A stretch of DNA of 64,000 nt, taken from positions 1,504,001-1,568,000 of the forward strand of contig OZ251219.1 in assembly GCA_965240465.1 (NCBI GenBank). Direction: 5' to 3'. Positions within the stretch are counted from its first letter, which is position 1; each line of letters opens with the position of its first letter. The translations under genes were made by a program, and so were the position numbers. The DNA is from a bacterium (lineage in GTDB: Bacteria; SAR324; JACQKK01). Below are positions 17,526 to 61,294 of this stretch, in pieces. The notes under the pieces were generated by a model. It was not told the DNA's origin, ran no database searches, and saw nothing but the letters and a program-made list of their open reading frames with translations.

Positions 17526-18569
17526 TTAACCTCCTATGCGATGCATCTCTACTTTTTTCAGGTCGGTAGCTGGTATGTTATCAGCAGAGTCGCCAAGCGT
17601 TTTTCTTTCTTCTGAGTAACGATCGGTGCGTTGTTGCCAAGTTTCTTGGATTAACTCTAACAATTCCTCATCTGAAGCACCACGGCGTAGGGGAGTACGC
17701 AAATCTAAACCTTTGGTAGCAAATAAACAGGTGAATAATTCTCCATCGGCAGATAATCTTGCTCGGGTACAACTACTACAAAAAGGCTCCGAAATAGACG
17801 CTACCACCCCTATCTCCCCCTGCCCATCCACATACCTATGACGGCTGGCTGGCTTTTCATCTCGTCTCCCGATTAACTCCAACGCCCACCTCTGATTTAG
17901 TAATCGCAGTATTTCGGCGGCTTCCACTACCTTCTGCGGCTGCCAGCCACTGCAACCGCCCACATCCATGTACTCAATAAAGCGTAAAATTACGCCACTA
18001 CCCCGAAATTGCTCTGCCATGGCTACTATCTGATCCTTATTCACCCCCTGGATAACCATATTCACCTTAACAGGATCAAGACCAGCTGCCTGAGCTGCCT
18101 CAATCCCCTTTAGCACCCGAACAACTGCTCCCTGCTTTGTCCCATTACCGCTACCTATGCCAATAATGCTACGAAAAATTTCCTCATCCAAACTATCCAA
18201 ACTGACTGTTATCCTGCTTAATCCTGCCCGACTTAAATCATCTGCCATTGATTCCAAAAACCAGCCATTAGTAGTCAGAGATAAATCACTTATGCCAGTC
18301 AAATTCCGCAATCGTTCCACTAATTTTAGCATCCCCTTGCGTAATAACGGTTCACCTCCTGTCAGGCGTAACCTAGTAGCCCCTAATTGCACTCCTAGTG
18401 AAGATAAGCGTACTATTTCATCATCGCTCAGTAGATTTGTATGATCGGTAAATTTCCAGTCTTTGCCATATCCATCGGCTGGCATGCAGTACTCACAGCG
18501 AAAATTACAGCGGTCAGTCAGTGAAATACGCAAATCGCGTAATTGCCGTCCTAACTTATCTTCAAGCAT
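17526..18569 (-). CDS. moaA: GTP 3',8-cyclase
   Basis: LRISLTDRCNFRCEYCMP, FCSSCTRARL, C-terminal MHRIGG. Confidence 0.95.
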   Translation of the reverse strand: MLEDKLGRQLRDLRISLTDRCNFRCEYCMPADGYGKDWKFTDHTNLLSDDEIVRLSSLGVQLGATRLRLTGGEPLLRKGMLKLVERLRNLTGISDLSLTTNGWFLESMADDLSRAGLSRITVSLDSLDEEIFRSIIGIGSGNGTKQGAVVRVLKGIEAAQAAGLDPVKVNMVIQGVNKDQIVAMAEQFRGSGVILRFIEYMDVGGCSGWQPQKVVEAAEILRLLNQRWALELIGRRDEKPASRHRYVDGQGEIGVVASISEPFCSSCTRARLSADGELFTCLFATKGLDLRTPLRRGASDEELLELIQETWQQRTDRYSEERKTLGDSADNIPATDLKKVEMHRIGG

Positions 18570-18675
18570 TTAGTAATCTCAACATGTCGGGTTTTCTCTA
18601 CGACATCACATGGCATCACGAGGATGGTGAAGTTATAGCAACGCGATCACCTGTTTATACTAGCAGAAAGTATTG

Positions 18676-19800
18676 CTAGGACAAAGCTCCTAGGATGGTA
18701 TTAGTAATCAGGTCTTGAATATCTGGATTAAGGTAAGCGTGCATGGGGAGGCTGATAACTTGTTGGGTAAGAGCAACTGTGATATTAGTTTCGCCTGAGA
18801 TATGGCTGAAGTGCTGATAAGCGGGTTGTCGGTGGAAAGGAATGGGGTAATAGATAGCAGTGGGGATGTTTTGTTGCTGGCTGGCAATGGCGATTTTATC
18901 CCTCTGGTCGCTGATGATGGTATACTGTGCCCAAGTACTGGAGCGATCTGCCTTGAGTTGAGGAGTGCTTACAACTCCTCCTAGGGCTTGCTGATAGCGT
19001 TGAGCAATTTGCTGTCTGCGTTGGAGTTCCTCGGGAAAGATGCTGAGTTTTTGCCTTAGAATGACCGCTTGGATGCTATCTAGGCGTGAATTAAGTCCGA
19101 TGTAACAATGCTCATAGCGGTGGCTGCCTTGCCCATGTTGACGCAAGGAACGTAATTTTTGGGCTAGGTCATGATCCTGAGTAAAGACCGCCCCTCCGTC
19201 TCCATAACAGCCAAGTGGCTTGGAAGGAAAAAAACTGACCGCAGTGGCATCTCCCAAAGTGCCGACTGACTGCTGCTGATATTTCGCCCCGAAACTTTGG
19301 GCTGCATCGGCAATGAGGAATAGATTGTGCTCCGAGCAAAACGCTTGCAGGGCTTGATAATCATCAGGCTGACCGAATAGGTCTACTGCGATAAGGACTT
19401 TTGGTTTGAGTTTTTTTCTGGAGGCAACTTCTAGGGCTGATAGCAGTAGTCGGGGATTGAGCATGAAAGTGTCTTTTTCCACATCCACGAAAATGGGAGA
19501 TGCCCCAACCATGGCAACAGATTCCGCGGTAGCAATGAAGGTGAAATCGGGGACTATCACTGCATCGCCACTCCCTATGCCAAGGGCGAGCATAATGAGC
19601 AATAGGGCATCTGTCCCGTTGGCACAGGTAATACAGTGCTTTGCCCCACAGAAATCAGCCAGCTCTGATTCTAGAGCCTCTACTTCTGGCCCTAAAACAA
19701 AGCGACCATCTTTGAGAAGTGCTGCTAGTGACTGGCTGAGTTGAGGTTCCAGTCGTTCTCGCTGGGCTTGTAGGTCAATAAAGGGGATGGAAGTAGACAA
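18676..19800 (-). CDS. DegT/DnrJ/EryC1/StrS aminotransferase (WbpE/GnnB-like)
   Basis: IPFIDL, ANGTDAL, DAAQSFG, SFFPSKPLGCYGDGG, NSRLDSIQA. Confidence 0.9.
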   Translation of the reverse strand: MSTSIPFIDLQAQRERLEPQLSQSLAALLKDGRFVLGPEVEALESELADFCGAKHCITCANGTDALLLIMLALGIGSGDAVIVPDFTFIATAESVAMVGASPIFVDVEKDTFMLNPRLLLSALEVASRKKLKPKVLIAVDLFGQPDDYQALQAFCSEHNLFLIADAAQSFGAKYQQQSVGTLGDATAVSFFPSKPLGCYGDGGAVFTQDHDLAQKLRSLRQHGQGSHRYEHCYIGLNSRLDSIQAVILRQKLSIFPEELQRRQQIAQRYQQALGGVVSTPQLKADRSSTWAQYTIISDQRDKIAIASQQQNIPTAIYYPIPFHRQPAYQHFSHISGETNITVALTQQVISLPMHAYLNPDIQDLITNTILGALS

Positions 19801-19855
19801 TGTAAATTATTTAGGAGAAAAAAATAAAAATATCTGAGTCACTTTGCCAGAAAAT

Positions 19856-20485
19856 CTAATCAGAAAAAACCGGGTGCTGATGATGTGGAAAAAGCACCCC
19901 TTGCCATTTCAAGTGATTACGGCGTCGCTTCAAGGAGGAGGAAAGAATATAAGTTTGAGTTTGTTGACAATGCTTATGAGGACGCAAGCGAACATAAACA
20001 TTATTGATTTCTCCATGCTTTTTATCAATGTGGTAGGCCTTGAGCAGGTCTTTAATGATGCTCTTACGCTGGGTAGCGTCTTCAAAAATATCAGGTGGTA
20101 AGACGGGTCGGTGAAGAAGTTCATCGGTGGTAATGCCAGTGTGTTGGATGGCACTATCGCTAACTGACTGAGGCGGGCAATGACTAAGTGAGTGCTCGCT
20201 TGGCAAGGTGGGATAAGCTACAAAAACAAACGGAAGGGAGTCCTTAATGAAATCGTGTTCTGCCAATCTTTCATTTATGCGTCTAGAGGCTTGCCCTACG
20301 ATAATGGGGGGAATAAAGGGGATGATTATCATTATCAAGTAAGCATAAGACCATTGATCCATTATGCGACTCAGAGTGCTCTGGATGATCAGGATACTGA
20401 ACCCAATCACAAAAGAAGCCCGCAAAGGGGTCTGAATAATAAACTCAATGGTGCGTCCGAATAGACTCGGTCGTCTTTGCGACAT
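19856..20485 (-). CDS. Hypothetical membrane protein with 2 TM segments and a possible PAS-like domain
   Basis: Two hydrophobic segments followed by SVSDSAIQHTGITTDELL (weak PAS-like); start set at ATG 20485. Confidence 0.5.
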   Translation of the reverse strand: MSQRRPSLFGRTIEFIIQTPLRASFVIGFSILIIQSTLSRIMDQWSYAYLIMIIIPFIPPIIVGQASRRINERLAEHDFIKDSLPFVFVAYPTLPSEHSLSHCPPQSVSDSAIQHTGITTDELLHRPVLPPDIFEDATQRKSIIKDLLKAYHIDKKHGEINNVYVRLRPHKHCQQTQTYILSSSLKRRRNHLKWQGVLFPHHQHPVFSD

Positions 20486-20758: not shown

Positions 20759-22393
20759 TTGAACGAAAGCGTTGTACCCCTAGAGCGTGTGAAAGTAGCG
20801 GTTTGGAGTGAATTGGCAGACCGTAATCCTGCCTACGCTCTGGTAGCTGGGGTTGACTTGGTATTGGTGCGTTGGGATGAGCAAGTTTCGGTATTGTATG
20901 GGCGATGTTTGCATCGCGGAGCCTTAATGTCGGATGGGAGAATTGAGGGGGATAATTTGATATGCGGCATGCATAATTGGGATTATTGTTTTGAGACTGG
21001 GGTCAGTGGTTACAACTCCGCAGAGAGATTACACAAGTTTAATGCTTGGGTGCAAGAAGATGCTGTGTATGTTGACCGATTGGAAATAGAAGCGTGGGAA
21101 AAGGACAATCCGCAACCTTATGACCGAGATACCTATCAGGGACTGTACGCTGATATTCATGGTACCCCTGATGAACCACACAACGCTTATATTAGAGAGT
21201 TAGCGGTCAATGGTCTTGAGAAGATGGGTCAGCATGGCTGGGTATCGGCTATGGGTGTATCTCGGGAAAGATTGCCTAGTTGGGATGATATTCAGATAAT
21301 CACTGCTCAGTTGGCGGTTAGTCCTCAGCAGGATAATGTTGCGGTTGGTACGGAGCTAGTGATTGGCACCCGAGCCAAAAAGCCCTTACTTTTGAGTATT
21401 CCTTTGTTTGTCAGCGACATGAGCTTTGGTGCTCTTAGTGAGGAAGCCAAGGTGGCTTTGGCAAAAGGGGCAGAATTAGCAAAGACTGGCATTTGCTCTG
21501 GTGAAGGAGGTATGTTACCTGAGGAAAAACAAGCTAATTCACGCTATTTTTATGAGCTCGCTAGTGCACGTTTTGGCTGGTCTTTGGATAGGGGAGCTAG
21601 TTGTCAGGCATTTCATTTCAAATCTGGTCAAGGTGCTAAGACTGGTACTGGCGGTCATTTGCCCGGCAAAAAGGTGCAGGGTAAAATCGCTAAGGTGCGT
21701 GGACTTACTCCGGGTACCTCTGCGATTAGTCCCGCAGCTTTCCCCGACCTCCATACTCCTCAAGATTATGCCCGCCTAGCTGATGAAGTCCGCCAAGCTT
21801 CGGGTGGCATCCCGATCGGCTTTAAGATGTCCGCCCAGCATATTGAAAAAGACTTGGACTTCGCCTTAGAGGCTGGTGCAGATTACATCATTCTGGATGG
21901 CCGTGGCGGAGGAACTGGGGCAGCTCCTAACATCTTCAAGGATCATATTTCGGTCCCTACCATGGCGGCTTTGGTGCGGGCTCGCAGACACCTAAATAAA
22001 TTGGGGCAACAGGACATCACTCTCATTATTACAGGCGGCTTGCGTACCGAAACCGATTTTGTCAAAGCACTGGCACTAGGAGCAAACGGTATCGCCGTTT
22101 CCAACTCAGCCATACAGGCGATCGGTTGTTTGGGTATGCGTGCCTGTCATACCAATAACTGCCCCGTAGGAATTGCTACCCAGCAATCTCATTTGCGGGC
22201 ACGACTGTTAGTGGATGCCTCGGCACAACAGCTGGCAAACTTCTTCCAAGCCACCGTGGAACTGATGAAAATTCTCTGCCGTGCCTGCGGGCATACTCAC
22301 CTTAATCAATTCAACACCGACGACGTCGCCACCTTGAACAGAGATATTGCCATGCTTACTGGTATTAATTATGCTGGCGTTATGTCGCCATAA
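20759..22393 (+). CDS. Rieske [2Fe-2S] domain fused to an FMN-binding glutamate synthase-family domain
   Basis: CLHRG...CGMHNW; MSFGALS, GEGG, QGAKTGTGGHLPG, DGRGGGTGA, GCLGMRACHTNNCPVGIATQ. Confidence 0.9.
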   Translation: MNESVVPLERVKVAVWSELADRNPAYALVAGVDLVLVRWDEQVSVLYGRCLHRGALMSDGRIEGDNLICGMHNWDYCFETGVSGYNSAERLHKFNAWVQEDAVYVDRLEIEAWEKDNPQPYDRDTYQGLYADIHGTPDEPHNAYIRELAVNGLEKMGQHGWVSAMGVSRERLPSWDDIQIITAQLAVSPQQDNVAVGTELVIGTRAKKPLLLSIPLFVSDMSFGALSEEAKVALAKGAELAKTGICSGEGGMLPEEKQANSRYFYELASARFGWSLDRGASCQAFHFKSGQGAKTGTGGHLPGKKVQGKIAKVRGLTPGTSAISPAAFPDLHTPQDYARLADEVRQASGGIPIGFKMSAQHIEKDLDFALEAGADYIILDGRGGGTGAAPNIFKDHISVPTMAALVRARRHLNKLGQQDITLIITGGLRTETDFVKALALGANGIAVSNSAIQAIGCLGMRACHTNNCPVGIATQQSHLRARLLVDASAQQLANFFQATVELMKILCRACGHTHLNQFNTDDVATLNRDIAMLTGINYAGVMSP

Positions 22394-22453
22394 TTTCTCA
22401 AGTGATAATTACACGAGTTTGATTTCTCAAGTAATAATTGCACGAGTTTGATT
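22393..22453. repeat. 29-bp tandem duplication starting at the stop codon
   Basis: ATTTCTCAAGT(G/A)ATAATT(A/G)CACGAGTTTG twice. Confidence 0.9.
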
Positions 22454-22486
22454 CGCACTTTCTGCACCTTTTTCATATTCATCACC

Positions 22487-23350
22487 ATGACTACAAAATC
22501 TTACATTACCTCCAATGCCATTAGTACTGGATGGCGAAATATCCCTGTCCCACCTGTGCCTTCGCTAGCAAGTGCTCGCCTACGACTGCACTGGGGATCA
22601 CAAATTCCCTGTGCTGCTGCCAGTCAGTTAATAGAACCCTTACCCGATTACAGCCACTGCAACCTGACATATAATGCCAATTTGAATGCTCTTTTAAGCC
22701 GTCCCTTGCCAAAACATAAGGATTTATCAGCAGGTTTGGTACTAACCGAATGTAGCCTTCTGGTTACCGACAAAAAATTCCAACCCCTAGCATCTAAGCC
22801 GTTGGCAGGACTAACACTGGAAGAAGGAATGAAATGGATGGCTTCTGCCCTCAAGGAATATGGAGGAGACGTACCTCCACTAGTGCGTCCATTTCAGGAA
22901 ATCCCAGCTAGCCCCATTGCCAACAAAGAGCCTTTTCCTGATGGCGACCCCGCTGGATTAGCTGAGGTAGATAGATGGTTCGCCAACAGCTTCTCAACCT
23001 TGCTTCCATTGGCTAAATCCCTGAAGAGCAGTACGGTTTGGTGCTGGCCTCATCATTTTGATGTAGCTACCTTACTCTTCCTAGAAGACAAACCACCTGA
23101 CAAAGCCCAACAAATTAACATTGGCTTCAGCCCTGGCGATGGCAACTTTGATCACCCATACTGGTATGTTACCTTCTGGCCCGATTCCACCGAACCCTTG
23201 CCTCCTTTGGAAGGTCAGGGAATTTGGTGCCAAGAAGCATTTAAGGGGGCTCTGCTCCTTACCGATCATTTGGCTATCAGTGACCAGCCCGAACAATTAG
23301 CAGCCTATCTTAATTCTGCCATAGGGGCTTCCATCAAATTAGTAGGTTGA
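22487..23350 (+). CDS. Conserved hypothetical protein (DUF5996-like)
   Basis: LHWGSQ, WPHHFDVATL, GFSPGD, PYWYV; family assignment from memory. Confidence 0.6.
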   Translation: MTTKSYITSNAISTGWRNIPVPPVPSLASARLRLHWGSQIPCAAASQLIEPLPDYSHCNLTYNANLNALLSRPLPKHKDLSAGLVLTECSLLVTDKKFQPLASKPLAGLTLEEGMKWMASALKEYGGDVPPLVRPFQEIPASPIANKEPFPDGDPAGLAEVDRWFANSFSTLLPLAKSLKSSTVWCWPHHFDVATLLFLEDKPPDKAQQINIGFSPGDGNFDHPYWYVTFWPDSTEPLPPLEGQGIWCQEAFKGALLLTDHLAISDQPEQLAAYLNSAIGASIKLVG

Positions 23351-23493
23351 TTTTATTACTATTTCTTGTTCAATGTCTCCAGTATGTGTACCGAGCAACA
23401 ATGATTAGCGGCTATCATTAGCAAGTTGAACGGTGTATGCTTCGTGGTGGATGGGGAACATAAGTCGGAACACAAATAAACGTGCAGGGTATC

Positions 23494-28824: not shown

Positions 28825-30210
28825 TTGAATCCAAATAAAAACTTAAAAATTCCATTTGTAGTGCAAAGCACTCAAACAAGAGAACAAACTAATCCATCAG
28901 AATGCCCAAGCGGACTGGAGGGAGTACCATCCGATTTACCCAAAGAGGTTGGTTCACCTACTAAAGAGCTAGAAGAAAAATCTCGGAACATTTGGAGTGT
29001 CAGTGAATTTACCCATCGGGTCGGAGAGTTATTGGAGTCGGGTCTGGGTTCGGTGTTGGTGAAGGGTGAGGTTTCGGGATTTATTAGGGCGTCTTCGGGG
29101 CATTGCTATTTTCAGTTAAAAGATGAGGAAGCAATTTTACGGGTAGTCATATTTAGGGGGATAGCAGAAAGGATACGCTTTCAGGTAGAGAATGGATTGC
29201 AGTTGGTGGTTGGTGGCGACATAAGGGTGTACATGCAGAGGGGGGAATATCAGTTGCAGGCGGTTCGGGTTTTACCGCAGGGTATGGGCGAGCTTCAGCT
29301 GGCTTTTGAGCAGTTACAAAAACGATTGCAAGCAGAAGGCCTTTTTGATGAAAAACTGAAACGGAAATTGCCATGGCTTCCTAGGGCTGTGGGAGTAGTG
29401 ACATCGCCAAATGGGGCTGCTCTGCATGATATATTGGAGGTATTAAACAGGCGTTTTTTGGCTCTGCCAGTGGTGGTACAGCCGTGCGTGGTTCAGGGAG
29501 CTGGAGCAGGACAGAAATTGTCAGCTGCGGTACAATCATTGAGTACGCAAGCAGAGGAGCTAGGTATAGACGTGATCATAGTAGGTAGAGGAGGTGGTTC
29601 AGCAGAAGATCTGTGGGCTTTTAATGACGAGGGCTTAGCACGTGCCATTCGTGCGTGTAGTGTTCCAGTGGTTTCGGCAGTGGGTCATGAGATTGATTTT
29701 ACCATTGCCGATTTGGTAGCTGACCAGCGAGCCCCTACGCCTTCTGCTGCTGCTGAGATAGTCTCACCCCGACAGGATGATCTACTGGATCTAGTGATGA
29801 ATTCACGCCTAAGACTACATAGGGCAATGGAGCAAATACTTATCAGAAACAAGGAAAAACTACGCCATTTGCAGGTCCAAATTCGCTCTCCAATAGATTT
29901 CTGGCGATATGAAAAGCAGCGTCTCTATGGCCTACAAAAGCAGCTGTACGACCTCAAGAAAACTCTATTTGACACACCGAAAGCCCATTTGGCTCAGTTG
30001 AAAACCGCTCTAGATGCCCTAAGTCCGCTAGCGGTTCTGGCACGCGGATATGCGATTGTTAAGAATCGAAGCGGGCAGGCATTGCTTTGTGCTAGCAAAG
30101 CCAATCTGGGTGAAGCCCTAGATATTCGCTTGCATCAGGGAGAGTTGAATGTCAGGGTGGAGGGGATGTCTGTTGCTGATGCCAAATCTAGTCCGAAAAA
30201 AGATGACTAG
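28825..30210 (+). CDS. xseA: Exodeoxyribonuclease VII large subunit; start uncertain
   Basis: SSGHCYFQLKD, VTSPNGAA, GRGGGSAEDLWAFN, SAVGHEIDFT, RAPTPSAAAE. Confidence 0.95.
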   Translation: MNPNKNLKIPFVVQSTQTREQTNPSECPSGLEGVPSDLPKEVGSPTKELEEKSRNIWSVSEFTHRVGELLESGLGSVLVKGEVSGFIRASSGHCYFQLKDEEAILRVVIFRGIAERIRFQVENGLQLVVGGDIRVYMQRGEYQLQAVRVLPQGMGELQLAFEQLQKRLQAEGLFDEKLKRKLPWLPRAVGVVTSPNGAALHDILEVLNRRFLALPVVVQPCVVQGAGAGQKLSAAVQSLSTQAEELGIDVIIVGRGGGSAEDLWAFNDEGLARAIRACSVPVVSAVGHEIDFTIADLVADQRAPTPSAAAEIVSPRQDDLLDLVMNSRLRLHRAMEQILIRNKEKLRHLQVQIRSPIDFWRYEKQRLYGLQKQLYDLKKTLFDTPKAHLAQLKTALDALSPLAVLARGYAIVKNRSGQALLCASKANLGEALDIRLHQGELNVRVEGMSVADAKSSPKKDD

Positions 30211-30243
30211 CCCGAAAAAAGCTGACTAGTCCGAAAAAAGCTG
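30188..30243. repeat. 19-bp tandem repeat (CTAGTCCGAAAAAAG(A/C)TGA), 3 copies, overlapping the xseA stop
   Basis: Read directly. Confidence 0.93.
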
Positions 30244-30319
30244 GTAAGCCCAGCAAAGAAACTGAGATTTACTGCTTAATGCTTTTTATCTCCTGCTAGC
30301 ATCCTGAAAATACGAGCCT

Positions 30320-44253: not shown

Positions 44254-44261
44254 GCAGGTGG

Positions 44262-44306: not shown

Positions 44307-44344
44307 AAATATCCTCACTTTAGGAAGCTAAATAATAAATCCCT

Positions 44345-44719: not shown

Positions 44720-44752
44720 CAGTTTTGCTCCAGATAAGGTGAGTACCCAGCT

Positions 44753-52380: not shown

Positions 52381-52430
52381 GGCTTGCGTGCTTAGGTCAA
52401 GCGATTGCTAACAGAGTAGGCAATAGGAAT

Positions 52431-52597
52431 AGATAGGAGGCATGGATGGCACAGATAGAGGCATGGATAAGGCAGATAATAGGCATAGATGGCACAGATA
52501 AGAGGCATAGATGGCACAGATAGAGGCATGGATAAGAGGCAGATAAGAGGCATAGATGGCACAGATAAGAGGCATGGATAGGAGGCACCGATAAGAT
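52431..52597. repeat. Mosaic tandem array built from GAGGCAT(A/G)GAT, GGCACAGATA and GATAA modules
   Basis: Read directly; ends at the rsmA ATG. Confidence 0.9.
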
Positions 52598-53407
52598 ATG
52601 GGTAGGCGATTTGGTCAGCATTTTTTGAGGAGCAAAGATACTGCCCAACGCATAGTGGCTACGGTTGAGCTTGGGGAGGGATCATTTGTATTGGAGATTG
52701 GTCCTGGCAGGGGAGCTCTCACCAGCGTGTTGCTGGGAACGGGAGCACGTGTTTGTGCCATAGAGCATGATGCCCTTTTGTTTGAATATCTCCAGCAAAA
52801 ATGGGGGCAACATCCACGCATATCGCTATTGCACGATGATATACTTCGGGCTGATCTTCACCCAGCAGAGCTCTTTGGTCAGCACCTCCAAGATTTGCAG
52901 CCATTTTACATTGTTGCCAATATTCCCTACTACCTCACCACTCCCCTGCTGATGAAGCTCATTCCCATCCGTGCCAATCTTAAGCGGGTGGTACTCACCT
53001 TGCAGAATGAGATCGCCGAAAGAATTGTTGCTCAGCCAAACACCTCTAAAAAATATGGCTCTCTCAGCGTAGCCGTGCAGCATGCTTTCCATCCCCGAAT
53101 ACATTTTCAGCTTCCGCCCGAGGCTTTTTTGCCACCCCCAAAGGTGCATTCTGCAGTACTTTCCTTGCTACCTAAGAAGCAATTTATGCATCCTGAACTG
53201 GAACATAGTTTCCTCCAGTGGTGCAAACAAGTTTTCTCTCAACGCCGCAAGCAGTTCGGTAATATATCGCCTGCCAAATTACAAGCACCAGCTACCCTGT
53301 CTTCTCTCAGCCTACCTGCCTTGCCTTCCAATTGGAAAACACTAAGACCAGAAGTACTTAGTCCCTCGCAACTCCTGAATATCTTTGTGAACGGACTGCT
53401 TAACTAG
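52598..53407 (+). CDS. rsmA: 16S rRNA adenine dimethyltransferase
   Basis: FGQHFL, LEIGPGRGALT, VANIPYY, YGSLSV, FLPPPKVHSAV. Confidence 0.95.
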   Translation: MGRRFGQHFLRSKDTAQRIVATVELGEGSFVLEIGPGRGALTSVLLGTGARVCAIEHDALLFEYLQQKWGQHPRISLLHDDILRADLHPAELFGQHLQDLQPFYIVANIPYYLTTPLLMKLIPIRANLKRVVLTLQNEIAERIVAQPNTSKKYGSLSVAVQHAFHPRIHFQLPPEAFLPPPKVHSAVLSLLPKKQFMHPELEHSFLQWCKQVFSQRRKQFGNISPAKLQAPATLSSLSLPALPSNWKTLRPEVLSPSQLLNIFVNGLLN

Positions 53408-53498: not shown

Positions 53499-53852
53499 AT
53501 GGAAAAAACTTCACACGTTTTGCATATTACTCCCAGAGCTGCCGAGCAGGTGAAAAGCGTCTTGGATGGGGAGCAAATATTGCTCCGTATTGATGCGGTC
53601 AAGGGGGGTTGCTCGGGCTATAAGTACACCCTGGATGCGACCGAAAGCATTGCTCCTAACGATGTCCAATTTTCTTCCAATGGACTGATCCTAATCGCTG
53701 ATAGTAGCCGACTGAATGACATCTTAGGTTCTTTGGAGATAGACTATCAGGATGGCAATTTAGTTGAGCAAGGTTTTACCTTCAAGCCCATCTCTGCTGG
53801 TGATACCAATTGCGGCTGTGGTAAGTCTTTTGCCCCTGTTAAGGGGACTTGA
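53499..53852 (+). CDS. HesB/IscA/ErpA-family Fe-S carrier
   Basis: GGCSGYKY, CGCGKSF. Confidence 0.93.
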   Translation: MEKTSHVLHITPRAAEQVKSVLDGEQILLRIDAVKGGCSGYKYTLDATESIAPNDVQFSSNGLILIADSSRLNDILGSLEIDYQDGNLVEQGFTFKPISAGDTNCGCGKSFAPVKGT

Positions 53853-55342
53853 TGATGAATTATCAGAGGACGGAATCTTCCAGAAACCGTGTTTGGTGGC
53901 TGGCGGTATCTGTGATAGTGCTGGCGTACGCGGTGCGTGTTTGGGCGGCTTATTACATTCCACTTTTTGACACCACCGAGGCCCGCTACGCCGATATGGC
54001 TCGCAAGATGGTGGAGTCTTCCGACTGGATTAACGTCCCGTACGATGGCGAAGTTGATTTTTGGTCAAAACCGCCGTCGAGTTTTTGGATATCGGCATTG
54101 GGTGTGAAGCTCTTTGGAGACGGAGAGTTAAGTTCTCGCATAGGTTTGTTGCTGGTGAGCCTCATGTTTTTGTGGGGTTGGTATGCTTGGGTGCGAAAAA
54201 TCTTGGGAGCACATTTATCTGTGATGGCGACTTTAGCCTTAGCGATTTCTCCTGCGTACTTAATATCATCAGCGGTTATTTTCACGGATATGATGCTCAC
54301 CATAGCAATATCTATTGCCCTGATGGGATTTTGGAATCGGATAAACTATGCCAATCCCAAGGCGGAGTGGTTTTTATACTTGGGAATGGCTATGGGACTG
54401 CTGTCTAAGGGGCCGATAGCCTTATTGTTCATTTTATTTCCAATCGGTATTTGGGCGTTCGTTAATGGAAAAATCAGGCAGGTCTGGCGGGACTTTCAAT
54501 GGATAAAGGGGGGAATCATGGTTTTGCTCATCGCGATACCTTGGTACGTGCTGTTTGAAATTAAAAGCCCCGGATTTTTGCATTATTTCATAATGAAAGA
54601 ACACTTAGGCCGCTTCTTTGCTGGCGATTCTCTCAATCAGGGATATTTATTCGGTAGCATTCATAAAAGACCGTTGGGGACTATCTGGGCAGCATTGTTC
54701 ATCGGGTGCTTGCCATTCAGTCTACTGGCGATTGGATTGGTTTTCAAAAGAAGCACTCTTGACCTTTATCGGAATCACCGCTCGCTGATCAATTTCCTGC
54801 TCTGGTGGATGCTGGGTCCCTTACTCTTATTCAGCTTTACCAGACACATTTTGGAATCGTATGCCCTGCCCGCCGTACCACCCTTTATCATGCTGATAAC
54901 CATGCTGATAATGAACGCCCGCCCCAAACAACAAATCACCCGCAGCTACTGGGTGATGGCTTTGAGCTTAGGTATTATAGTCCCGTTTATTTTATCATCC
55001 GTCTATTTCACTCGTGAGTCGTACCAAAATCCAAAACTCACCAAGAAGCAACTGATCTCCTACATAACCCAAGGAGAATTCTTGGACTGTCCCCTTTTTA
55101 TCTGGAAAGATAGATCATTCTCTGCTGAATATTACAGCCAAGGTGCCACTAAGACCGCCCGCAACTTTGATGCACTACAAGCAGCTGCCAAAGCAAAAAC
55201 ATGTGCCCTTTTGGTTATCAATAAAAAGCTTGAAACCAGCTTCCCCGCAGATAAACGAGAGAAAATCAGAATTGTTAAAAAGTACCCGACCATCACCCTT
55301 TACATCCTAAGTGACAAAGCAGATTATCCTCCACCAAAATAA
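53849..55342 (+). CDS. ArnT/GT39-like membrane glycosyltransferase
   Basis: TEARYADMARKM, WSKPP, TDM, LSKGP, PWY, EH. Confidence 0.85.
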   Translation: MMMNYQRTESSRNRVWWLAVSVIVLAYAVRVWAAYYIPLFDTTEARYADMARKMVESSDWINVPYDGEVDFWSKPPSSFWISALGVKLFGDGELSSRIGLLLVSLMFLWGWYAWVRKILGAHLSVMATLALAISPAYLISSAVIFTDMMLTIAISIALMGFWNRINYANPKAEWFLYLGMAMGLLSKGPIALLFILFPIGIWAFVNGKIRQVWRDFQWIKGGIMVLLIAIPWYVLFEIKSPGFLHYFIMKEHLGRFFAGDSLNQGYLFGSIHKRPLGTIWAALFIGCLPFSLLAIGLVFKRSTLDLYRNHRSLINFLLWWMLGPLLLFSFTRHILESYALPAVPPFIMLITMLIMNARPKQQITRSYWVMALSLGIIVPFILSSVYFTRESYQNPKLTKKQLISYITQGEFLDCPLFIWKDRSFSAEYYSQGATKTARNFDALQAAAKAKTCALLVINKKLETSFPADKREKIRIVKKYPTITLYILSDKADYPPPK

Positions 55343-56424: not shown

Positions 56425-58626
56425 ATGGATATAAACATAAATAAGCAAGTTAAAAAAAATGACGAGTATGAAGCTCCAGAGATAAAATTAAAGGGGATCA
56501 AGTTCAAAGGAGTAATTAGTCGCTCGGACAAAGCTCATCAGGCGGGCGGGGGCGAAGCTCCTTATCAGGCGAGGGCGGGCGGGACTCAGGCGAGGGGGGG
56601 GGGGGGCGAAGCTCCTTATCAAGCGAGGGCAGGCGGGACTCAGGCGAGGGGAGGGGGGGGCGAAGCTCCTTATCAAGCGAGGGGGGGCGAAGCCCCTTAT
56701 CAAGCGAGGGCAGGCAGGACACAGGCGGGCGGAGATTATCAATCGAGGGCAGGCGGGACTCAGGCGAGGGGGGGGGGGGGCGAAGCTCCTTATCAAGCGA
56801 GGGCGGGCAGGACACAGGCGGGGGGGGGCGAAGCTCCTTATCAAGCGAGGGGGGGCGAAGCTCCTTATCAAGCGAGGGCAGGCAGGACACAGGCGGGCGG
56901 AGATTATCAAGCGAGGGGAGGGGGGGGCGAAGCTCCTTATCAGGCGAGAGGGGGCGAAGCTCCTTATCAGGCGAGAGGGGGCGAAGCTCCTTATCAAGCG
57001 AGGGCAGGCGGGACTCAGGCGAGGGCAGGCGGGACTCAGGCGAGGGGAGGCGAAGCTCCTTATCAGGCGAGAGGGGGCGAAGCTCCTTATCAAGCGAGGG
57101 CAGGCAGGACACAGGCGAGCGGAGATTATCAAGCGAGGGGAGGCGGGGGCGAAGCTCCTTATCAAGCGAGGGCGGGCAGGACTCAGGCGGGGGGGGGCGA
57201 AGCTCCTTATCAGGCGAGGGCGGGCAGGACTCAGGCGGGGGGGGGCGAAGCTCCTTATCAGGCAGGCGAGGGCATAGATCATCATCAGGCGAGGACGGGC
57301 GGAGTATTGGTTACTCGTGGGCGTTCTATAGTGAAGGAAGAGCATGAAACTTCAAATTGGCGGAAGAGACCGAGCGATGAGTTATTGATGCGTTGTGTGT
57401 TGCTGGATAGTATAGCGGGCAGTGAGGGCATTACGGGGGAAGGTATTGCGGGTGAAGGTATTGCGGGGGAGGAGCGGGAGCGTCAGTTGCTATCTGGGGT
57501 GGATTGGAATTTGGCTGTCAAGCACATATTTGAGTTGCATAGGTTATACACTGGGAGGGGAAAGAAGGAGTATCAGGGGGTAGAGAATCCTTTATGGGGT
57601 CGGGAGTTGGGGTATCAGTTGTATTATTTACCTCGTAATTTGCATAGGGTTCGTTGTGTGTTGCGCGGGTTGCCTTGGTTTCAGGGTGGGGAGGACTGGT
57701 TATTGCGTCCTTGGCTAAGATTGCGTGATGGTGAGTGGTCGTTGTCTTGGTTGGACTTAGGTTGTGGGACGGGGGCCTTTAGTTTGGCTTGGTTGCAGTG
57801 GTTGGCGGGCTTAGGGGCACCCCTTGAGGGATGGCCTAGCTTACATATTACCCTAGTTGATCAATCTCATCGCCTATTGGATATAGCTGAGCGTCAAATA
57901 CGTCTATATGTTAAGGTAGCCTTACCAGCAGCTAAGTTGAGAATAGTGCGAGTGGCCCGCGGGATTGCTCCGTGGTTGGAGAGTGAGGCTGGGAAGAAGT
58001 CATTTTGTTTGGTAGGGGTAGCGATGTCTTTAACGGAGCTAGGATTATTGGGGCCGCGTCGTAAGAGTGAGCGTTCTGGCATTATGCTCAAAGGACTGCA
58101 AGAACGCGTTTCCAATGGGGGCTTGATGCTCTTTGTGGAACCGGGCGTTCGTAAGGGCTATCTTAACCTGATGATGCTACATCCTTGGCTAAGAAAACAC
58201 CCGATATTGTATCCGTGTCCTCATCAGCAGCCTTGCCCGATGTGGCATCCTGCCGTGCGTAATTGGTGTCATGCCACTGAAATACTGCCTCGGCACTTCT
58301 TTTTTGATGAGCCACTGCAACGCTATGGTGGACTTCAGTTTAATATGCGTGATGTCAATCTTTCTGCTTTGGCGGTTCAAAACACTGCCGATAGCAGCAC
58401 TCCGCCATTTCGTCATTTGCAAGCTGGGGAAAGAGTGGTCTCTGGACTGATGCCTTTCAAGCAAGCCATGGCTTTTCCTCGGGTAATTAGAGATTCTTTG
58501 CATTCTTCGCCTCTATCTAAATCCTGCTTGGTATGTACTGCCAACGGAAAACTGCGAGTGCTATCCGTATCGTCTCAAGATGAAGATATCTACCGAGGAG
58601 CTTGGCTTCGGACTTCCCAGAAATAA
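56425..58626 (+). CDS. Rsm22-family SAM-dependent methyltransferase with a long N-terminal RGG/Gly-rich repeat
   Basis: YYLPRN, LDLGCGTG, FVEPG, YPCPHQQPCPM...WCH. Confidence 0.78.
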   Translation: MDININKQVKKNDEYEAPEIKLKGIKFKGVISRSDKAHQAGGGEAPYQARAGGTQARGGGGEAPYQARAGGTQARGGGGEAPYQARGGEAPYQARAGRTQAGGDYQSRAGGTQARGGGGEAPYQARAGRTQAGGGEAPYQARGGEAPYQARAGRTQAGGDYQARGGGGEAPYQARGGEAPYQARGGEAPYQARAGGTQARAGGTQARGGEAPYQARGGEAPYQARAGRTQASGDYQARGGGGEAPYQARAGRTQAGGGEAPYQARAGRTQAGGGEAPYQAGEGIDHHQARTGGVLVTRGRSIVKEEHETSNWRKRPSDELLMRCVLLDSIAGSEGITGEGIAGEGIAGEERERQLLSGVDWNLAVKHIFELHRLYTGRGKKEYQGVENPLWGRELGYQLYYLPRNLHRVRCVLRGLPWFQGGEDWLLRPWLRLRDGEWSLSWLDLGCGTGAFSLAWLQWLAGLGAPLEGWPSLHITLVDQSHRLLDIAERQIRLYVKVALPAAKLRIVRVARGIAPWLESEAGKKSFCLVGVAMSLTELGLLGPRRKSERSGIMLKGLQERVSNGGLMLFVEPGVRKGYLNLMMLHPWLRKHPILYPCPHQQPCPMWHPAVRNWCHATEILPRHFFFDEPLQRYGGLQFNMRDVNLSALAVQNTADSSTPPFRHLQAGERVVSGLMPFKQAMAFPRVIRDSLHSSPLSKSCLVCTANGKLRVLSVSSQDEDIYRGAWLRTSQK
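56533..57300. repeat. Mosaic G-rich array with 15 copies of the GGCGAAGC(T/C)CCTTATCA core (GEAPYQ)
   Basis: Core copies counted in the translation; linker modules ARAGGTQ, ARAGRTQ, GDYQ, ARGG. Confidence 0.95.
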
Positions 58627-58656
58627 ACATGGACTTACATATTTCCAAGTCACATC

Positions 58657-60186
58657 ATGTCTTCACAGCCGACCCCTCCATACCTTGCCGAGCAAATACT
58701 TAGAGCTAGATTATCCTTGTTAGCTACAGGATGGCTGGACATCATCAGCAAAAATAAAGATTTTCAAACCACCAATAAAAAAACCCTAAACATCCTTGAT
58801 GGCGGAATACTCAGGCTTAGCGAACTTGATCCTAAAATCTCTAAAACCAGTAAGCAATCTGCTTATTTGCTCTTCCGTGATGCCCACATTAAGCTAGATA
58901 ACAAGCAGATTAAGGGTGTTTTGCAACTCAGTTGGGCACCCATGGCTAAGCCCGTAGGCACCAAGATTATCTTGCGGGTTTGCTATCTTCCTCCTGCTCG
59001 GTCGGTTGCCGCTCCGTTGCTATCTCTGCAAAACCTGCTCGCAGAAAGACTCCACTGGGCCGAAAATCCTGCCACCGCTCCCATCCACAAATTGCCGGGC
59101 CTTTGCGGGATCGCCGCTAGCAATCACCCAGAGGAACTAGATAACCTAATACAGCATGCCGCCGAAGCCCGAGCTTATCTAAAAGCAGATAATCTCATCA
59201 GACCCCTAAAACAACACATCTCCAACCCCAACGATCCTCGCGTACAACATCAACTAGAACAAAAATTATTTGAAGGCATCTGTCGCTTTATCGGTTCTAA
59301 AAGTTATCAAGAACCTTTCTCGGCCCTGGCAAAACACTTTCCCCTCTCACAAATCAAAGATACCCTCCAGCTGAAACCAGAAAGAGCTAAGTTAAAAATC
59401 CTATCCCTTTGGATGGGTGCACTCCATATGCTAAAAGAACCGCTCGCAGATATCCATCCAGATTGCCGTGCTTATTACTCCCAACTAAAAAATAACTGGG
59501 AAAAACATGATGCCCCCTCACCCCTAGTACCACTACAAAAAACCAGAACCCGACCACTAAACTCACTGGAACGCAGATTGATCGCCCTCTTTTGGCATAT
59601 TTACCATCTGCAACCACATGGTCTCCTCAACGGATGGCTCGGACTCCTGAGCCAAATAGATCCTCTCCGCAATGACGAAACCATGCAATCCGAAGTGAAA
59701 AATATACTCAGAAAAGCTTTCCATACTCCCCACAACGAACCTTGGCAACTACACACTACCTTCCATTCTAAAATGCTCCCTCAACCCGTGCAGCTCGCAG
59801 GAGATCATCTTGTTGCCGTACTCGCTGCCAATGCCATTGTCCCCTTCTTCCTAGGACTGGCTCGCTGGAAAAAAGATACCGAAATGGAAAAAACCCTCTA
59901 TCGCTTCTACCTACTGCTACCAACCGAAATATCTAATCCTCGCATCCAATACATGGAAGAAAGACTCTTTCTATCCTCACATAAAAAAAGACCGCTAAGA
60001 AGCCAACAAGGAATCCTTCAGCTACATCAAGACTTCTGCCATCATTTCCCTTATAAATGCCAACTTTGTAAGATCCCTATCCTGAGGACACAGCATACTT
60101 TCATAGCCTGCCATGCTGACAATATTGACGATGGCTTTCTAAACAAACTCTTCCAGCCTCAGACGCATTCCGTACACGAAGATTAA
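58657..60186 (+). CDS. DUF2851-like protein
   Basis: FRDAHIKLD...G, RPLNSLERRL, ANAIVPF, QQGILQLHQDFC...CQLC. Confidence 0.65.
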   Translation: MSSQPTPPYLAEQILRARLSLLATGWLDIISKNKDFQTTNKKTLNILDGGILRLSELDPKISKTSKQSAYLLFRDAHIKLDNKQIKGVLQLSWAPMAKPVGTKIILRVCYLPPARSVAAPLLSLQNLLAERLHWAENPATAPIHKLPGLCGIAASNHPEELDNLIQHAAEARAYLKADNLIRPLKQHISNPNDPRVQHQLEQKLFEGICRFIGSKSYQEPFSALAKHFPLSQIKDTLQLKPERAKLKILSLWMGALHMLKEPLADIHPDCRAYYSQLKNNWEKHDAPSPLVPLQKTRTRPLNSLERRLIALFWHIYHLQPHGLLNGWLGLLSQIDPLRNDETMQSEVKNILRKAFHTPHNEPWQLHTTFHSKMLPQPVQLAGDHLVAVLAANAIVPFFLGLARWKKDTEMEKTLYRFYLLLPTEISNPRIQYMEERLFLSSHKKRPLRSQQGILQLHQDFCHHFPYKCQLCKIPILRTQHTFIACHADNIDDGFLNKLFQPQTHSVHED

Positions 60187-60228
60187 CATTGATTGTCAGC
60201 GAGGCATTTTGGCTCTATGCTGGTAGAG

Positions 60229-60270
60229 CATGGCAGATAGATCATGACAGATAGATCATGGCAGATAGAT
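60229..60270. repeat. 14-bp tandem repeat (CATGGCAGATAGAT), 3 copies
   Basis: Read directly. Confidence 0.92.
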
Positions 60271-60292
60271 GACATCTAGTTAGTAGAGATAA

Positions 60293-61294
60293 ATGAAGAT
60301 AGGCATTGTAGGATTATCAGGGAGTGGCAAAAGCACCTTATATCGGGCTTTGGGAGGTTCTAGCGGTGAGGTCTGTACCATAAAATCTCCTGATGAGCGA
60401 GTGGATGCCCTAGCCAAGCTGAGTGGCTCTAAAAAGCGTACCTATGTGGAGGTGAGCTTTGTTTCTTCTTCGGGAGGGAGTAATTTTCAGGCTCTGCAAG
60501 CGGATGCCCTAGTAGTAGTGTTGAGAGGCTTTGACAGCAGTACCCCTGCCTCGCCAGCAACCGAATGGAAAGAATGGGAATCCGAACTGATCTTAACCGA
60601 TATGGAGCTGTTAGAAAATCGCATTTCACGGCTACACAAAGAGCATAAGCCCGAACAAAAATCAGAGCTTGAATTATTGCAGCAATGCTTGGCTCATCTG
60701 GAGAATGGTAAGCGTTTGATTAGCTTTTCACGGGATAAGCAAGCCCAAAGAATTCTAAGTGGATACTCGTTATTATCAGCTAAGCCCGTCTTGCCCCTGC
60801 TAAACTTGGATGAAAACCGCTTCACCGCTCAAGAGCGATCGCTACAGCAATCGCTACAGCAATCGCTACAATCGCTGCAAACCGCCCCCGAATGCCAACC
60901 CATGAGCCTCTGCGCCCAACTGGAAATGGAAATAAGCCAGCTATCAGCCGAAGAACAACCCGAATTCTTAGCCAGCTTGAACCTAGAAAAACCCGTCCGA
61001 GAACGCTTTATTCAAGCTGCCTTTGGTATGTTGGATCTCATTTGCTTTTTAACCACCGGCCCCGAGGAAAGTCGTGCTTGGTCAATCTCCTCAGGGTCAT
61101 CGGCTCAGCAGGCAGCAGGCAAAATCCATTCCGACATCGCCCGAGGCTTTATCCGAGCTGCGGTCATTCCCTATCAGCAGTTGCTAGAAATCGGCTCGGA
61201 AAAGGAAGCCCGCCAGCAAGGGAAAATCCGCTTGGAAGGCAAGCAGTACGTGGTTCAAAATGGCGATGTCATTCACTTCCGCTTTGCAACCTAA
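60293..61294 (+). CDS. ychF: YchF-family ATPase, shortened and divergent
   Basis: GIVGLSGSGKST, LLSAKP, AAGKIHSDIARGFIRA, EGKQYVVQNGDVIHFRF. Confidence 0.85.
   Translation: MKIGIVGLSGSGKSTLYRALGGSSGEVCTIKSPDERVDALAKLSGSKKRTYVEVSFVSSSGGSNFQALQADALVVVLRGFDSSTPASPATEWKEWESELILTDMELLENRISRLHKEHKPEQKSELELLQQCLAHLENGKRLISFSRDKQAQRILSGYSLLSAKPVLPLLNLDENRFTAQERSLQQSLQQSLQSLQTAPECQPMSLCAQLEMEISQLSAEEQPEFLASLNLEKPVRERFIQAAFGMLDLICFLTTGPEESRAWSISSGSSAQQAAGKIHSDIARGFIRAAVIPYQQLLEIGSEKEARQQGKIRLEGKQYVVQNGDVIHFRFAT
60838..60880. repeat. 12-bp coding repeat (SLQQ) inside ychF
   Basis: ATCGCTACAGCA units. Confidence 0.85.

What the first reader, a model, noticed from the sequence alone, without database searches (positions are those of the whole stretch)
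17526..60300. Kilobase-scale sawtooth G/C strand skew independent of coding strand
Seen: the + strand jumps abruptly from C/A-rich to G/T-rich and then drifts back over about 2-8 kb. Jumps by eye lie near 18.6, 23.4, 29.0, 31.8, 36.5, 44.3, 52.4, 56.4 and 60.2 kb. Hand counts on 60-nt lines that I selected (so not an unbiased sample), all in + strand genes: 29041 28G/6C, 31021 6G/20C, 31861 24G/8C, 44101 3G/25C, 57601 19G/7C, 59221 7G/18C. In two - strand genes: 17761 9G/23C and 18841 21G/6C. Proteins follow the bias, with G/V/W-rich starts and Q/H/P/K-rich ends (for example RluA). Established: bacterial skew normally flips only at ori and ter. Inference: recurrent local ssDNA exposure, from dispersed replication or repair initiation, or a transcription-polar mutation gradient. 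Several jumps coincide with repeat arrays, so the two phenomena may share a cause.
Basis: partly seen in the sequence, partly recalled or inferred. Interest (0 to 1): 0.8.

Follow-up and report, generated by a model that had tools for sequence, protein, structure and literature searches.

The report
Gene-anchored G-to-C strand skew switching
In this small bacterial genome and its sister species, most transcription units start G-rich and end C-rich on their own sense strand, even at silent codon positions; the cause is unknown, and I found no report of this in bacteria.

Summary
All 8 hand counts reproduce and 8 of the 9 listed jumps are recovered. Genome-wide, 600-bp GC skew has SD 0.196 against 0.061 for binomial noise. 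The signal is stronger at fourfold sites, and steep declines occur in 36% of genes against 6% after codon shuffling.

It is tied to genes. Upward jumps sit at non-coding gaps of 20 bp or more and are absent at tight operon junctions. The fall happens inside genes and is closer to a step near mid-unit than to a ramp. "Independent of coding strand" follows trivially from reverse-complement symmetry.

Replication looks ordinary: dnaA sits at the cumulative-skew minimum. Rho, NusG, RNase HI and HII, UDG, MutS, MutL, Mfd and UvrA are all present. Repeat arrays do not explain the jumps.

The sister genome shares the pattern; eight larger relatives do not.

My best guess is a transcription-linked strand-asymmetric transition bias. 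The mechanism is inferred, not shown.

The scan noted gene-anchored skew sawteeth before on other DNA: a Planctomycetota genome with opposite polarity and a giant-virus-like genome with the same polarity. The closest published analogue is in fungi (PMC3315797), with reversed polarity.

The parts
18570..18675 (.). Up-jump at the gap between two minus-strand genes, moaA-like 17526-18569 and a DegT-type aminotransferase 18676-19800. Plus-strand skew goes from -0.43/-0.18 to +0.38.
   Evidence: peak 18429, +0.62
20759..23350 (+). Unit of two plus-strand genes after the divergent gap 20543-20758. G-rich (+0.38 to +0.24) up to about 21.6 kb, then C-rich (down to -0.24).
23351..23481 (.). Up-jump at a co-directional gap, followed by a unit from 23482 (Rieske-TPP enzyme, serS, algH-like) that declines from +0.34 to about -0.2 by 28.5 kb. 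It shows no reset at the convergent gap near 27.4 kb.
   Evidence: peak 23402, +0.46
28825..31777 (+). Unit xseA plus proS after the divergent gap 28650-28824. All-site skew goes from +0.40 to -0.29; fourfold-site skew goes from +0.78 to -0.78.
   Evidence: peaks 28899 and 31714
33362..36387 (-). Minus-strand unit (rmuC, ndk, unknown gene). Sense-strand skew is about +0.2 at the 5' part (36.3 kb) and falls to -0.62 at the 3' end (33.3 kb). A G-rich repeat array lies at 33.06-33.56 kb on the plus strand.
36388..36644 (.). Up-jump at a divergent gap.
   Evidence: peak 36512, +0.68
36645..39075 (+). Tight three-gene unit (polyprenyl synthase, unknown gene, GTP cyclohydrolase I; junctions 17 bp and overlapping). 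Skew is +0.26 to +0.46 until about 38.1 kb. A down-step follows at 38267 inside the second gene, then -0.26 and -0.43. There is no reset at the internal junctions.
42397..44253 (+). Unit glycosyltransferase plus rluA-type pseudouridine synthase (18-bp junction). Down-step at 42795; rluA is C-rich throughout (all sites -0.26 to -0.42, fourfold sites -0.30 to -0.81).
44254..44752 (.). Up-jump in a 499-bp gap that holds a 25-bp x 6 array.
   Evidence: peak 44373, +0.55
52381..53407 (+). Up-jump in the array-bearing gap 52381-52597, then the rsmA/ksgA-type gene 52598-53407 with a sharp internal down-step at 52807 (+0.34 to -0.23).
53499..55342 (+). Unit of an Fe-S assembly protein plus a PMT-family glycosyltransferase. 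Up-jump at 53435 and down-step at 54816.
56425..60186 (+). Two-gene unit (30-bp junction) after the divergent gap 56287-56424. Skew is +0.34 to +0.55 until about 58.0 kb. The down-step at 58176 lies within about 20 bp of the genome's cumulative-skew maximum. Skew then runs -0.14 to -0.38.
60187..60292 (.). Up-jump at a co-directional gap with a 14-bp array.
   Evidence: peak 60177, +0.56

Best explanation
This is a lineage-specific strand-composition pattern anchored on transcription units. It is superimposed on an ordinary DnaA/oriC replication skew. On its own sense strand, each unit bounded by non-coding gaps is G-rich (C-poor) in its promoter-proximal part. It then switches, often fairly sharply near mid-unit, to C-rich (G-poor) in its distal part. 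The next gap resets it, which gives the upward jumps on either strand.

I think the most likely cause is a transcription-linked, strand-asymmetric substitution pressure acting mainly through transitions. In the proximal part, C->T on the non-template strand would outrun C->T on the template strand. In the distal part the balance would be reversed, for example because antisense, divergent or read-through transcription from the next boundary dominates there. A G-rich transcript could reinforce this by favouring R-loops.

Shown here: the anchoring on gaps, the presence and greater strength of the signal at silent sites, the transition signature, the conservation between two species, and the absence in larger relatives. 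Inferred only: that transcription and single-strand exposure are the cause, and what reverses the sign in the distal half.
For: 1. Anchoring. Sharp up-jumps lie near non-coding gaps in 59-74% of cases against a 16% baseline, while down-jumps lie there in 14-33%. Of the 68 strongest up-jumps, 54 are in gaps or within 60 bp of a gene edge.

2. The unit is not the ORF. At co-directional junctions under 20 bp the jump is -0.006 +/- 0.029 (n=49). At 20-80 bp it is +0.10 (n=71) and at 80-200 bp +0.14 (n=105). Divergent gaps give +0.17 to +0.25. Divergent gaps make up 48 of 127 strong-jump gaps against 48 of 346 no-jump gaps.

3. Silent sites. The fourfold gradient runs from -0.06 to -0.33 and is larger than at codon positions 1 and 2. 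The skew continues into flanking non-coding DNA and switches 50-75 bp after stop codons and at mid-gap.

4. Signature. Between C-rich and G-rich windows, twofold Y sites change C/(C+T) from 0.50 to 0.21, and twofold R sites change G/(G+A) from 0.24 to 0.65. The sister genome shows the same.

5. Independence from replication direction. Leading and lagging genes show the same gradient with an offset of 0.2-0.27.

6. Persistence. Across 199 orthologue pairs at a median 64% amino-acid identity, gene fourfold skew correlates at r=0.63. The within-gene drop correlates at r=0.60 for all sites and 0.35 for fourfold sites.

7. Derived trait. It is present in 400 kb of the same-genus genome G001 (1.72 Mb). 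It is absent in samples of 8 of 8 other relatives, whose SD is 0.06-0.12.
Against: There are no expression data, so neither sense nor antisense transcription has been observed.

Genes expected to be highly expressed (tuf, fusA, rpoB, rpoC) show only a weak pattern, where a simple dose effect would predict the strongest.

Convergent gaps, which need hold no promoter, still show up-jumps of +0.09 to +0.16. The C-rich 3' end is equally strong whether the downstream neighbour is convergent or co-directional.

Position in the unit explains under 1% of fourfold-site deviance, and half of the variance lies between genes. At fourfold sites A and T hardly change. A simple 'favour G, disfavour C' weighting fits as well as deamination, so selection on RNA composition gives the same signature.

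RNase HI and HII, UDG, Mfd, Rho and NusG are all present, so no missing safeguard explains why this lineage differs.

Gene calls are crude longest-ORF calls, and units are defined only by gap size.
Confidence: 0.45

Rival explanations
1. Selection on transcript composition. C-rich, G-poor RNA toward unit ends would load Rho and terminate both sense and antisense transcripts at boundaries. G-rich, C-poor proximal RNA would resist premature Rho action. An NTP-supply argument like that proposed for fungi is a variant of this idea.
For: The axis is essentially G versus C with A and T near neutral at fourfold sites; that C > G is what Rho responds to is recalled knowledge. Rho and NusG are present. 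Intrinsic-terminator-like sites are not above shuffles in 40 kb of the window: 15 against 21.2 expected, and 25 against 19.6 expected. The most negative skew lies in the last ~125 bp before the stop and up to 25 bp after it, and flips by +75 bp. Resets need a non-coding gap. The pattern is conserved between species with saturated silent sites.
Against: The C-rich zones span 0.5-1.5 kb of translated sequence, far more than the ~80-100 nt I recall for a rut site. Fourfold skews reach -0.8, which would need strong per-site selection in a reduced genome. Eight relatives with Rho and NusG show no such pattern. The switch scales with gene length (0.62 x length) and is not fixed relative to the 3' end.
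Confidence: 0.25
2. Dispersed, bidirectional DNA synthesis starting at intergenic boundaries, by transcript- or R-loop-primed replication or long-patch repair. Each 2-4 kb unit would then behave as a mini-replicon, with an origin-like up-jump and a mid-unit terminus.
For: The up-jumps have the polarity of a replication origin. The true origin region is itself the second largest jump (607,807; +0.96). The fall is step-like and near the middle of the unit (median relative position 0.52), as expected for converging forks. The local signal has the same composition signature as this genome's replichore skew: a large GC offset with almost no AT offset.
Against: A conventional single origin and terminus skew persists with dnaA at the minimum. 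RNase HI and HII are present. Left and right flanks of a boundary are not coupled in strength; the flank correlation is +0.14 to +0.21 and not negative. Resets follow operon structure. No shared motif marks strong-jump gaps; the best Fisher p is about 1e-4 over 1,782 6-mers and 2,291 7-mers tested.
Confidence: 0.1
3. By-product of tandem-repeat birth and decay. Skewed short motifs amplify at gene ends and gaps, then decay into unique sequence and leave skewed patches.
For: The genome holds 645 arrays totalling 105 kb. Some of the most skewed patches in the window are arrays: 33.06-33.56 kb, 56.5-57.3 kb and 62.1-62.4 kb. Several of the 14 strongest 'inside gene' jumps adjoin internal arrays.
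Against: Jump size is about the same with and without arrays: co-directional 0.099 v 0.076, divergent 0.199 v 0.190, convergent 0.097 v 0.086. Conserved enzyme domains such as rluA and proS carry fourfold skews of -0.7 to -0.8. Twofold and fourfold silent sites across all genes follow the pattern.
Confidence: 0.05
4. Amino-acid composition, codon usage or chance, with no positional process.
For: Some gene-level skew is protein-driven. Large genes at 691-708, 800-812 and 1342-1355 kb are C-rich at fourfold sites, and the one of these clusters I profiled at all sites (799,925-812,347) is G-rich overall. Codon position 1 correlates only weakly with fourfold skew at gene level (r=0.14).
Against: Codon shuffling within genes removes the excess of negative slopes (36% to 6%). 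Silent sites lead. Eight relatives encoding homologous proteins lack the pattern.
Confidence: 0.03

Closest known systems
[quoted passage not shown]
   Same: The skew changes sign along the gene. It is seen at fourfold sites, extends into flanking non-coding DNA and shifts amino-acid usage. It is strong in some species and weak in close relatives. The cause is unresolved, with a mutational and an adaptive hypothesis both proposed.
   Different: The polarity is reversed: fungi are C-rich at the 5' end and G-rich at the 3' end. The fungal case is eukaryotic, with Pol II and single genes. Here the unit is a bacterial transcription unit with no reset at tight operon junctions. The change is step-like, and fourfold skews reach +/-0.8 locally.
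Transcription-associated strand asymmetry (excess G and T on the non-template strand, strongest near the 5' end of human genes; excess C->T on the non-transcribed strand in enterobacteria). Recalled knowledge; PMC2927911 seen only in a search listing.
   Same: The G-rich proximal half on the sense strand. The C/T and G/A transition signature at twofold sites.
   Different: The known cases keep one sign along the gene. Here the distal half reverses to C-rich, and genes expected to be highly expressed are not the most skewed.
Replication-associated GC skew: a bacterial origin/terminus switch, and the human skew 'N-domains' with upward jumps at origins (PMC3320577 and PMC2764438; abstracts in a search listing only)
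   Same: Upward jumps with origin polarity and a fall between them. The composition signature matches this genome's own replichore skew.
   Different: The scale is 2-4 kb instead of a replichore or a megabase. There are about 400 units beside one conventional dnaA-linked origin. The jumps follow operon structure.
C-rich, G-poor loading zones of Rho-dependent terminators (recalled knowledge)
   Same: C > G on the transcript just before unit ends. Rho and NusG are present and intrinsic-terminator-like sites are not enriched.
   Different: The C-rich zones are about ten times longer and lie inside translated sequence. They are paired with a G-rich proximal zone. Relatives that have Rho lack them.

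Membership tests
Replication (origin/terminus) GC skew | One sign change at the origin next to dnaA and one at the terminus per replicon | tested here: not met
   The genome does have this. The cumulative-skew minimum at 607,845 lies beside dnaA (605.6 kb) and the maximum lies at 1,562,156. The finding is a separate layer: 412 fitted segments with a median length of 2.95 kb.
Replication (origin/terminus) GC skew | The sign depends on replication direction | tested here: not met
   Leading and lagging genes show the same 5'->3' decline (+0.07 to -0.24, and -0.20 to -0.43). They differ only by an offset.
Transcription-associated strand asymmetry | Polarity is defined by gene orientation and resets at transcription-unit boundaries | tested here: met
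   The same sense-strand polarity holds on both strands. Jumps occur at gaps of 20 bp or more and not at tight junctions, and are largest at divergent gaps. Units are inferred from gaps, not from transcripts.
Transcription-associated strand asymmetry | Present at silent sites and in transcribed non-coding flanks | tested here: met
   Fourfold and twofold sites. Flanking non-coding DNA.
Transcription-associated strand asymmetry | Strength scales with transcription | tested here: inconclusive
   There are no expression data. tuf, fusA and rpoBC show a weak pattern, but codon selection may mask it.
Fungal-type opposite 5'/3' GC skew (PMC3315797) | Sense strand C-biased at the 5' end and G-biased at the 3' end | tested here: not met
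   The polarity here is the reverse: G-rich at the 5' end and C-rich at the 3' end.
Fungal-type opposite 5'/3' GC skew (PMC3315797) | The sign changes within the gene, silent sites are affected, and amino-acid usage is affected | tested here: met
   Amino-acid shifts of up to about 0.3-0.5 log2 units (Q, N, T, K, P up; V, W, C down) occur toward the C-terminus and are not seen in controls. Codon positions 1 and 2 co-vary with fourfold sites.
Rho-dependent terminator C>G zone | A short C-rich, G-poor untranslated RNA stretch upstream of a Rho-dependent 3' end | tested here: inconclusive
   C > G at unit ends is met and Rho is present. But the zones are 0.5-1.5 kb long and translated. Termination itself cannot be tested with these tools.
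Skew N-domains (replication fork polarity gradients) | The upward jumps are active replication initiation sites | not testable with these tools
   This needs nascent-strand or marker-frequency data. Only contigs of one sample were available.

The most novel reading that the evidence does not exclude
The intergenic boundaries may be sites where DNA synthesis, primed by transcripts or R-loops as replication or long-patch repair, starts in both directions and meets near mid-unit. On this reading the chromosome of this reduced-genome lineage carries hundreds of 2-4 kb mini-replicon-like units on top of its DnaA-driven replication. The origin-like polarity of the jumps, the step-like mid-unit fall and the shared composition signature with the replichore skew do not exclude it.
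Probability: 0.08. Interest if true: 0.9.

Novelty: new variant of a known kind. Interest (0 to 1): 0.62.

Why it matters
If the pattern is mutational, it records which DNA strand is more exposed or worse repaired at each position of each transcription unit. It is strong enough to change codon choice and, measurably, protein composition.

That would make this lineage a natural system for studying transcription-linked mutagenesis, R-loops and antisense transcription in bacteria. If it is selective, it would show that termination or transcript composition can shape kilobases of coding sequence.

In practice, gene-level GC skew in such genomes cannot be used to infer inversions, origins or foreign DNA. 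The pattern could also serve to predict transcription-unit boundaries in uncultured organisms.

Earlier notes of this scan report similar gene-anchored sawteeth in two unrelated genomes, one of each polarity. This suggests a wider phenomenon that has been overlooked.

Tried and rejected
**Repeat arrays as cause.** Rejected.

**Fold-back complementarity between G-rich and C-rich halves.** Only short imperfect inverted matches were found, 14-27 nt at 70-93%, in 3 of the 4 units tested and none in the fourth.

**Shared motif at strong-jump gaps.** None survives correction for multiple tests.

**Missing repair or transcription genes.** dnaA, rho, nusG, rnhA, rnhB, UDG, mutS, mutL, mfd and uvrA were all found in G000. 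All those searched in G001 (rho, nusG, rnhB, mutL, mfd, uvrA) were found there too. Other genes were not searched.

**Promoter- and terminator-like consensus scans.** Not above shuffles over 40 kb, so they could not be used to define units.

**Directon order.** Only a weak effect of about 0.1.

**Protein conservation against strength of decline.** No relation (Spearman -0.05 and -0.07).

**Trinucleotide context of the asymmetry.** Confounded by neighbouring G and C, so uninformative.

**Stronger near the terminus?** No. The SD is 0.14-0.23 in all 64-kb blocks.

**Expression data.** No RNA holder was listed for 10 kb of the window.

**Contigs of two runs of one sample.** This sample is probably the source of the window, so the check is not independent. 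Long pieces match with 0 other letters and break at repeat arrays, and they give no usable polymorphism.

**Literature.** Seven full-text searches found no report of a gene- or operon-polar GC-skew switch in bacteria. This covers only the held library.

Full report
**What was checked**

For statistics I used my own crude gene calls: longest ORFs of at least 100 aa chosen greedily without overlap, giving 1,202 ORFs that cover 88% of the genome. Pfam matches show that the ORFs of the finding's region are ordinary housekeeping genes such as moaA, serS, xseA, proS, ndk, rmuC, folE, rluA, ruvB and rsmA.

- All 8 of 8 hand counts reproduce exactly.
- Eight of the 9 listed jumps are recovered as up-jumps of at least 0.4 within about 0.2 kb. 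The ninth, at 56.4 kb, is a smaller step.
- In 17526-60300 the 600-bp skew has SD 0.213 and ranges from -0.37 to +0.53.
- Genome-wide the SD is 0.196 against 0.061 for binomial noise, 12.5% of windows exceed |0.3|, and every 64-kb block has SD 0.14-0.23.

- The signal is stronger at silent sites. Sense-strand fourfold skew falls from -0.06 to -0.33 over gene deciles, against 0.27 to 0.09 at position 1 and -0.05 to -0.16 at position 2. The gene-level fourfold SD is 0.33.
- Shuffling codons within genes removes the signal. Slopes below -0.15 per kb occur in 36% of 454 genes of at least 1.2 kb against 6% after shuffling. Slopes above +0.15 occur in 6% against 6%.

**Shape**

The fall of skew along 5'->3' is unchanged by reverse complementation. 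Genes on both strands must therefore look alike on the plus strand. In gene coordinates this means each sense strand runs from G-rich to C-rich.

The rise and the fall sit in different places. Sharp up-jumps lie near non-coding gaps in 59-74% of cases against a 16% baseline, whereas down-jumps lie there in 14-33%. Of the 68 strongest up-jumps, 54 are in gaps or within 60 bp of a gene edge.

Up-jumps outnumber down-jumps clearly only at high thresholds: 217 v 153 at 0.4 and 40 v 11 at 0.6. In the window there are 12 of each at 0.4. Read against the ORF list, 10 of the 12 down-steps lie inside single called ORFs within the finding's neighbourhood; 4392 is also inside an ORF and 45999 is at the edge of the low-GC island.

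In 163 clearly declining genes a two-level step fits better than a line in 90%. The median gain ratio is 1.51, against 1.10 for a simulated ramp and 1.39 for a simulated step. The levels average +0.22 and -0.16. The switch lies at a median relative position of 0.52, and its distance from the start scales as 0.62 x gene length. "Square wave with gene-phased switching" therefore describes it better than "sawtooth".

The pattern is a tendency and not a law:

- 66% of 412 fitted segments (median 2.95 kb) decline, and 68% of breakpoints are upward.
- Half of the 300-bp variance lies between genes (0.0209 of 0.0402), and a quarter is per-gene linear trend.
- A position-in-unit model explains under 1% of the fourfold-site deviance.

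**The unit is the transcription unit, not the ORF**

Jump size at junctions by type and gap:

| Junction type | Gap | Jump | n |
|---|---|---|---|
| Co-directional | under 20 bp | -0.006 +/- 0.029 | 49 |
| Co-directional | 20-80 bp | +0.10 | 71 |
| Co-directional | 80-200 bp | +0.14 | 105 |
| Convergent | 20-80 bp | +0.16 | 19 |
| Divergent | 20-80, 80-200, over 200 bp | +0.25, +0.17, +0.25 | 4, 19, 44 |

- Divergent gaps are 48 of 127 strong-jump gaps but 48 of 346 no-jump gaps.
- The flip occurs 50-75 bp after stop codons and around mid-gap.
- The tight three-gene unit 36645-39075 shows one G-rich block, one internal down-step at 38267 and one C-rich block, with no reset at its junctions.

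**Composition signature**

Between the most C-rich and the most G-rich windows:

- Fourfold sites change C from 0.40 to 0.13 and G from 0.10 to 0.30, while A (0.21 to 0.25) and T (0.29 to 0.32) hardly move.
- Twofold sites, where only transitions are silent, respond in parallel. C/(C+T) goes from 0.50 to 0.21 and G/(G+A) from 0.24 to 0.65, and the sister genome shows the same.

This fits a shifting balance of C->T on the two strands. It fits a simple preference for G over C in the transcript equally well.

Proteins follow modestly. Toward C-termini Q, N, T, K and P rise and V, W and C fall, by up to 0.3-0.5 log2 units, unlike in controls. Positions 1 and 2 co-vary with fourfold sites: the correlation of half-gene differences is 0.35-0.36, against 0.04-0.36 in the two control genomes (0.04 and 0.16 in G009, 0.36 and 0.17 in G008).

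**Not replication, not missing genes, not repeats**

- The cumulative skew has its minimum at 607,845, beside dnaA at 605.6 kb. Its maximum is at 1,562,156, which is window position 58,156.
- Leading and lagging genes show the same decline, offset by 0.2-0.27.
- rho, nusG, rnhA, rnhB, a UDG, mutS, mutL, mfd and uvrA are present.
- The genome has 645 repeat arrays totalling 105 kb. Jump size is about the same with and without an array, and arrays occur in 29% of strong-jump gaps against 24% of no-jump gaps.
- No motif marks strong-jump gaps, and there is no fold-back complementarity between the halves.

**A derived, persistent trait of the genus**

Four hundred kb of the same-genus genome G001 (1.72 Mb) show SD 0.179 and a fourfold gradient from +0.003 to -0.315.

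Samples of eight other relatives show SD 0.060-0.124 and no gradient. They come from two families with genomes of 2.8-5.3 Mb, and the samples were 50-200 kb each. The largest hint is a last-quintile dip in G021.

Between G000 and G001 I found 200 reciprocal best hits out of 314 G001 ORFs, at a median 64% identity. Gene fourfold skew correlates at r=0.63 (n=199). The within-gene drop correlates at r=0.60 for all sites and 0.35 for fourfold sites (n=126). Something keeps regenerating the pattern at the same places.

**Mechanism**

I favour a transcription-linked strand-asymmetric transition bias (0.45). The main rival is selection on transcript composition, for example Rho loading at unit ends (0.25). 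That rival is helped by the G/C-only axis and by the lack of intrinsic-terminator-like sites above chance. It is hurt by the kilobase extent of the zones and by relatives that have Rho but lack the pattern.

Against the simplest transcription model:

- tuf, fusA and rpoBC are weakly patterned.
- Convergent gaps still jump.
- There are no expression data.

Boundary-initiated DNA synthesis is not excluded by shape (0.1).

**Known parallels**

The closest published case is in unicellular fungi, with opposite polarity and an equally unresolved cause (PMC3315797; I read the abstract, discussion and passages). Seven full-text searches found no bacterial report.

Earlier notes of this scan describe gene-anchored skew sawteeth in a Planctomycetota genome (opposite polarity) and in a giant-virus-like genome (same polarity). 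I did not test those.

Noticed in passing
window about 58,156 (genome 1,562,156): The genome's cumulative GC-skew maximum, the likely replication terminus, falls inside the window at a down-step within ORF 56425-58626. The replichores are unequal, about 954 and 645 kb. Genes show no leading-strand preference (606 of 1,202).
   Followed up: partly
window 45,792-47,493: Low-GC island (26-28% G+C against about 45%). It holds an Eco57I-type methyltransferase-like ORF and a T5orf172-domain ORF, so it is probably recently acquired. It does not share the skew pattern.
   Followed up: no
window 56,537-57,291: G-rich in-frame 27/54-bp repeats (60-67% G+C) fill the N-terminal part of ORF 56425-58626. 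The only Pfam match of this ORF (Rsm22-type methyltransferase) lies at residues 474-726.
   Followed up: no
G000:C1:261,288-271,494: Four partial RNase H C-terminal fragments with internal stops, spaced about 3.0-3.5 kb apart, lie downstream of the intact rnhA-like gene at 255.7 kb. This looks like a repeated block of gene relics.
   Followed up: no
window 30,302: Contigs of both laid runs carry one extra C after this position, in the xseA-proS gap. This is a possible 1-bp error or variant in the assembly.
   Followed up: no
window 20,759-25,467: Two neighbouring enzymes carry N-terminal Rieske [2Fe-2S] domains: a glutamate-synthase-like protein and a TPP-dependent enzyme.
   Followed up: no
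G000:C1:562,934-568,432: UvrA matches form a double-length open frame of 1,867 aa. Similar frames of about 1,830-2,090 aa occur in relatives.
   Followed up: no
window 17,000-56,999: Sigma-70-like promoter and intrinsic-terminator-like consensus sites are no more frequent than in shuffled sequence. Promoters: 26 v 28.7 and 44 v 40.2. Terminators: 15 v 21.2 and 25 v 19.6.
   Followed up: partly
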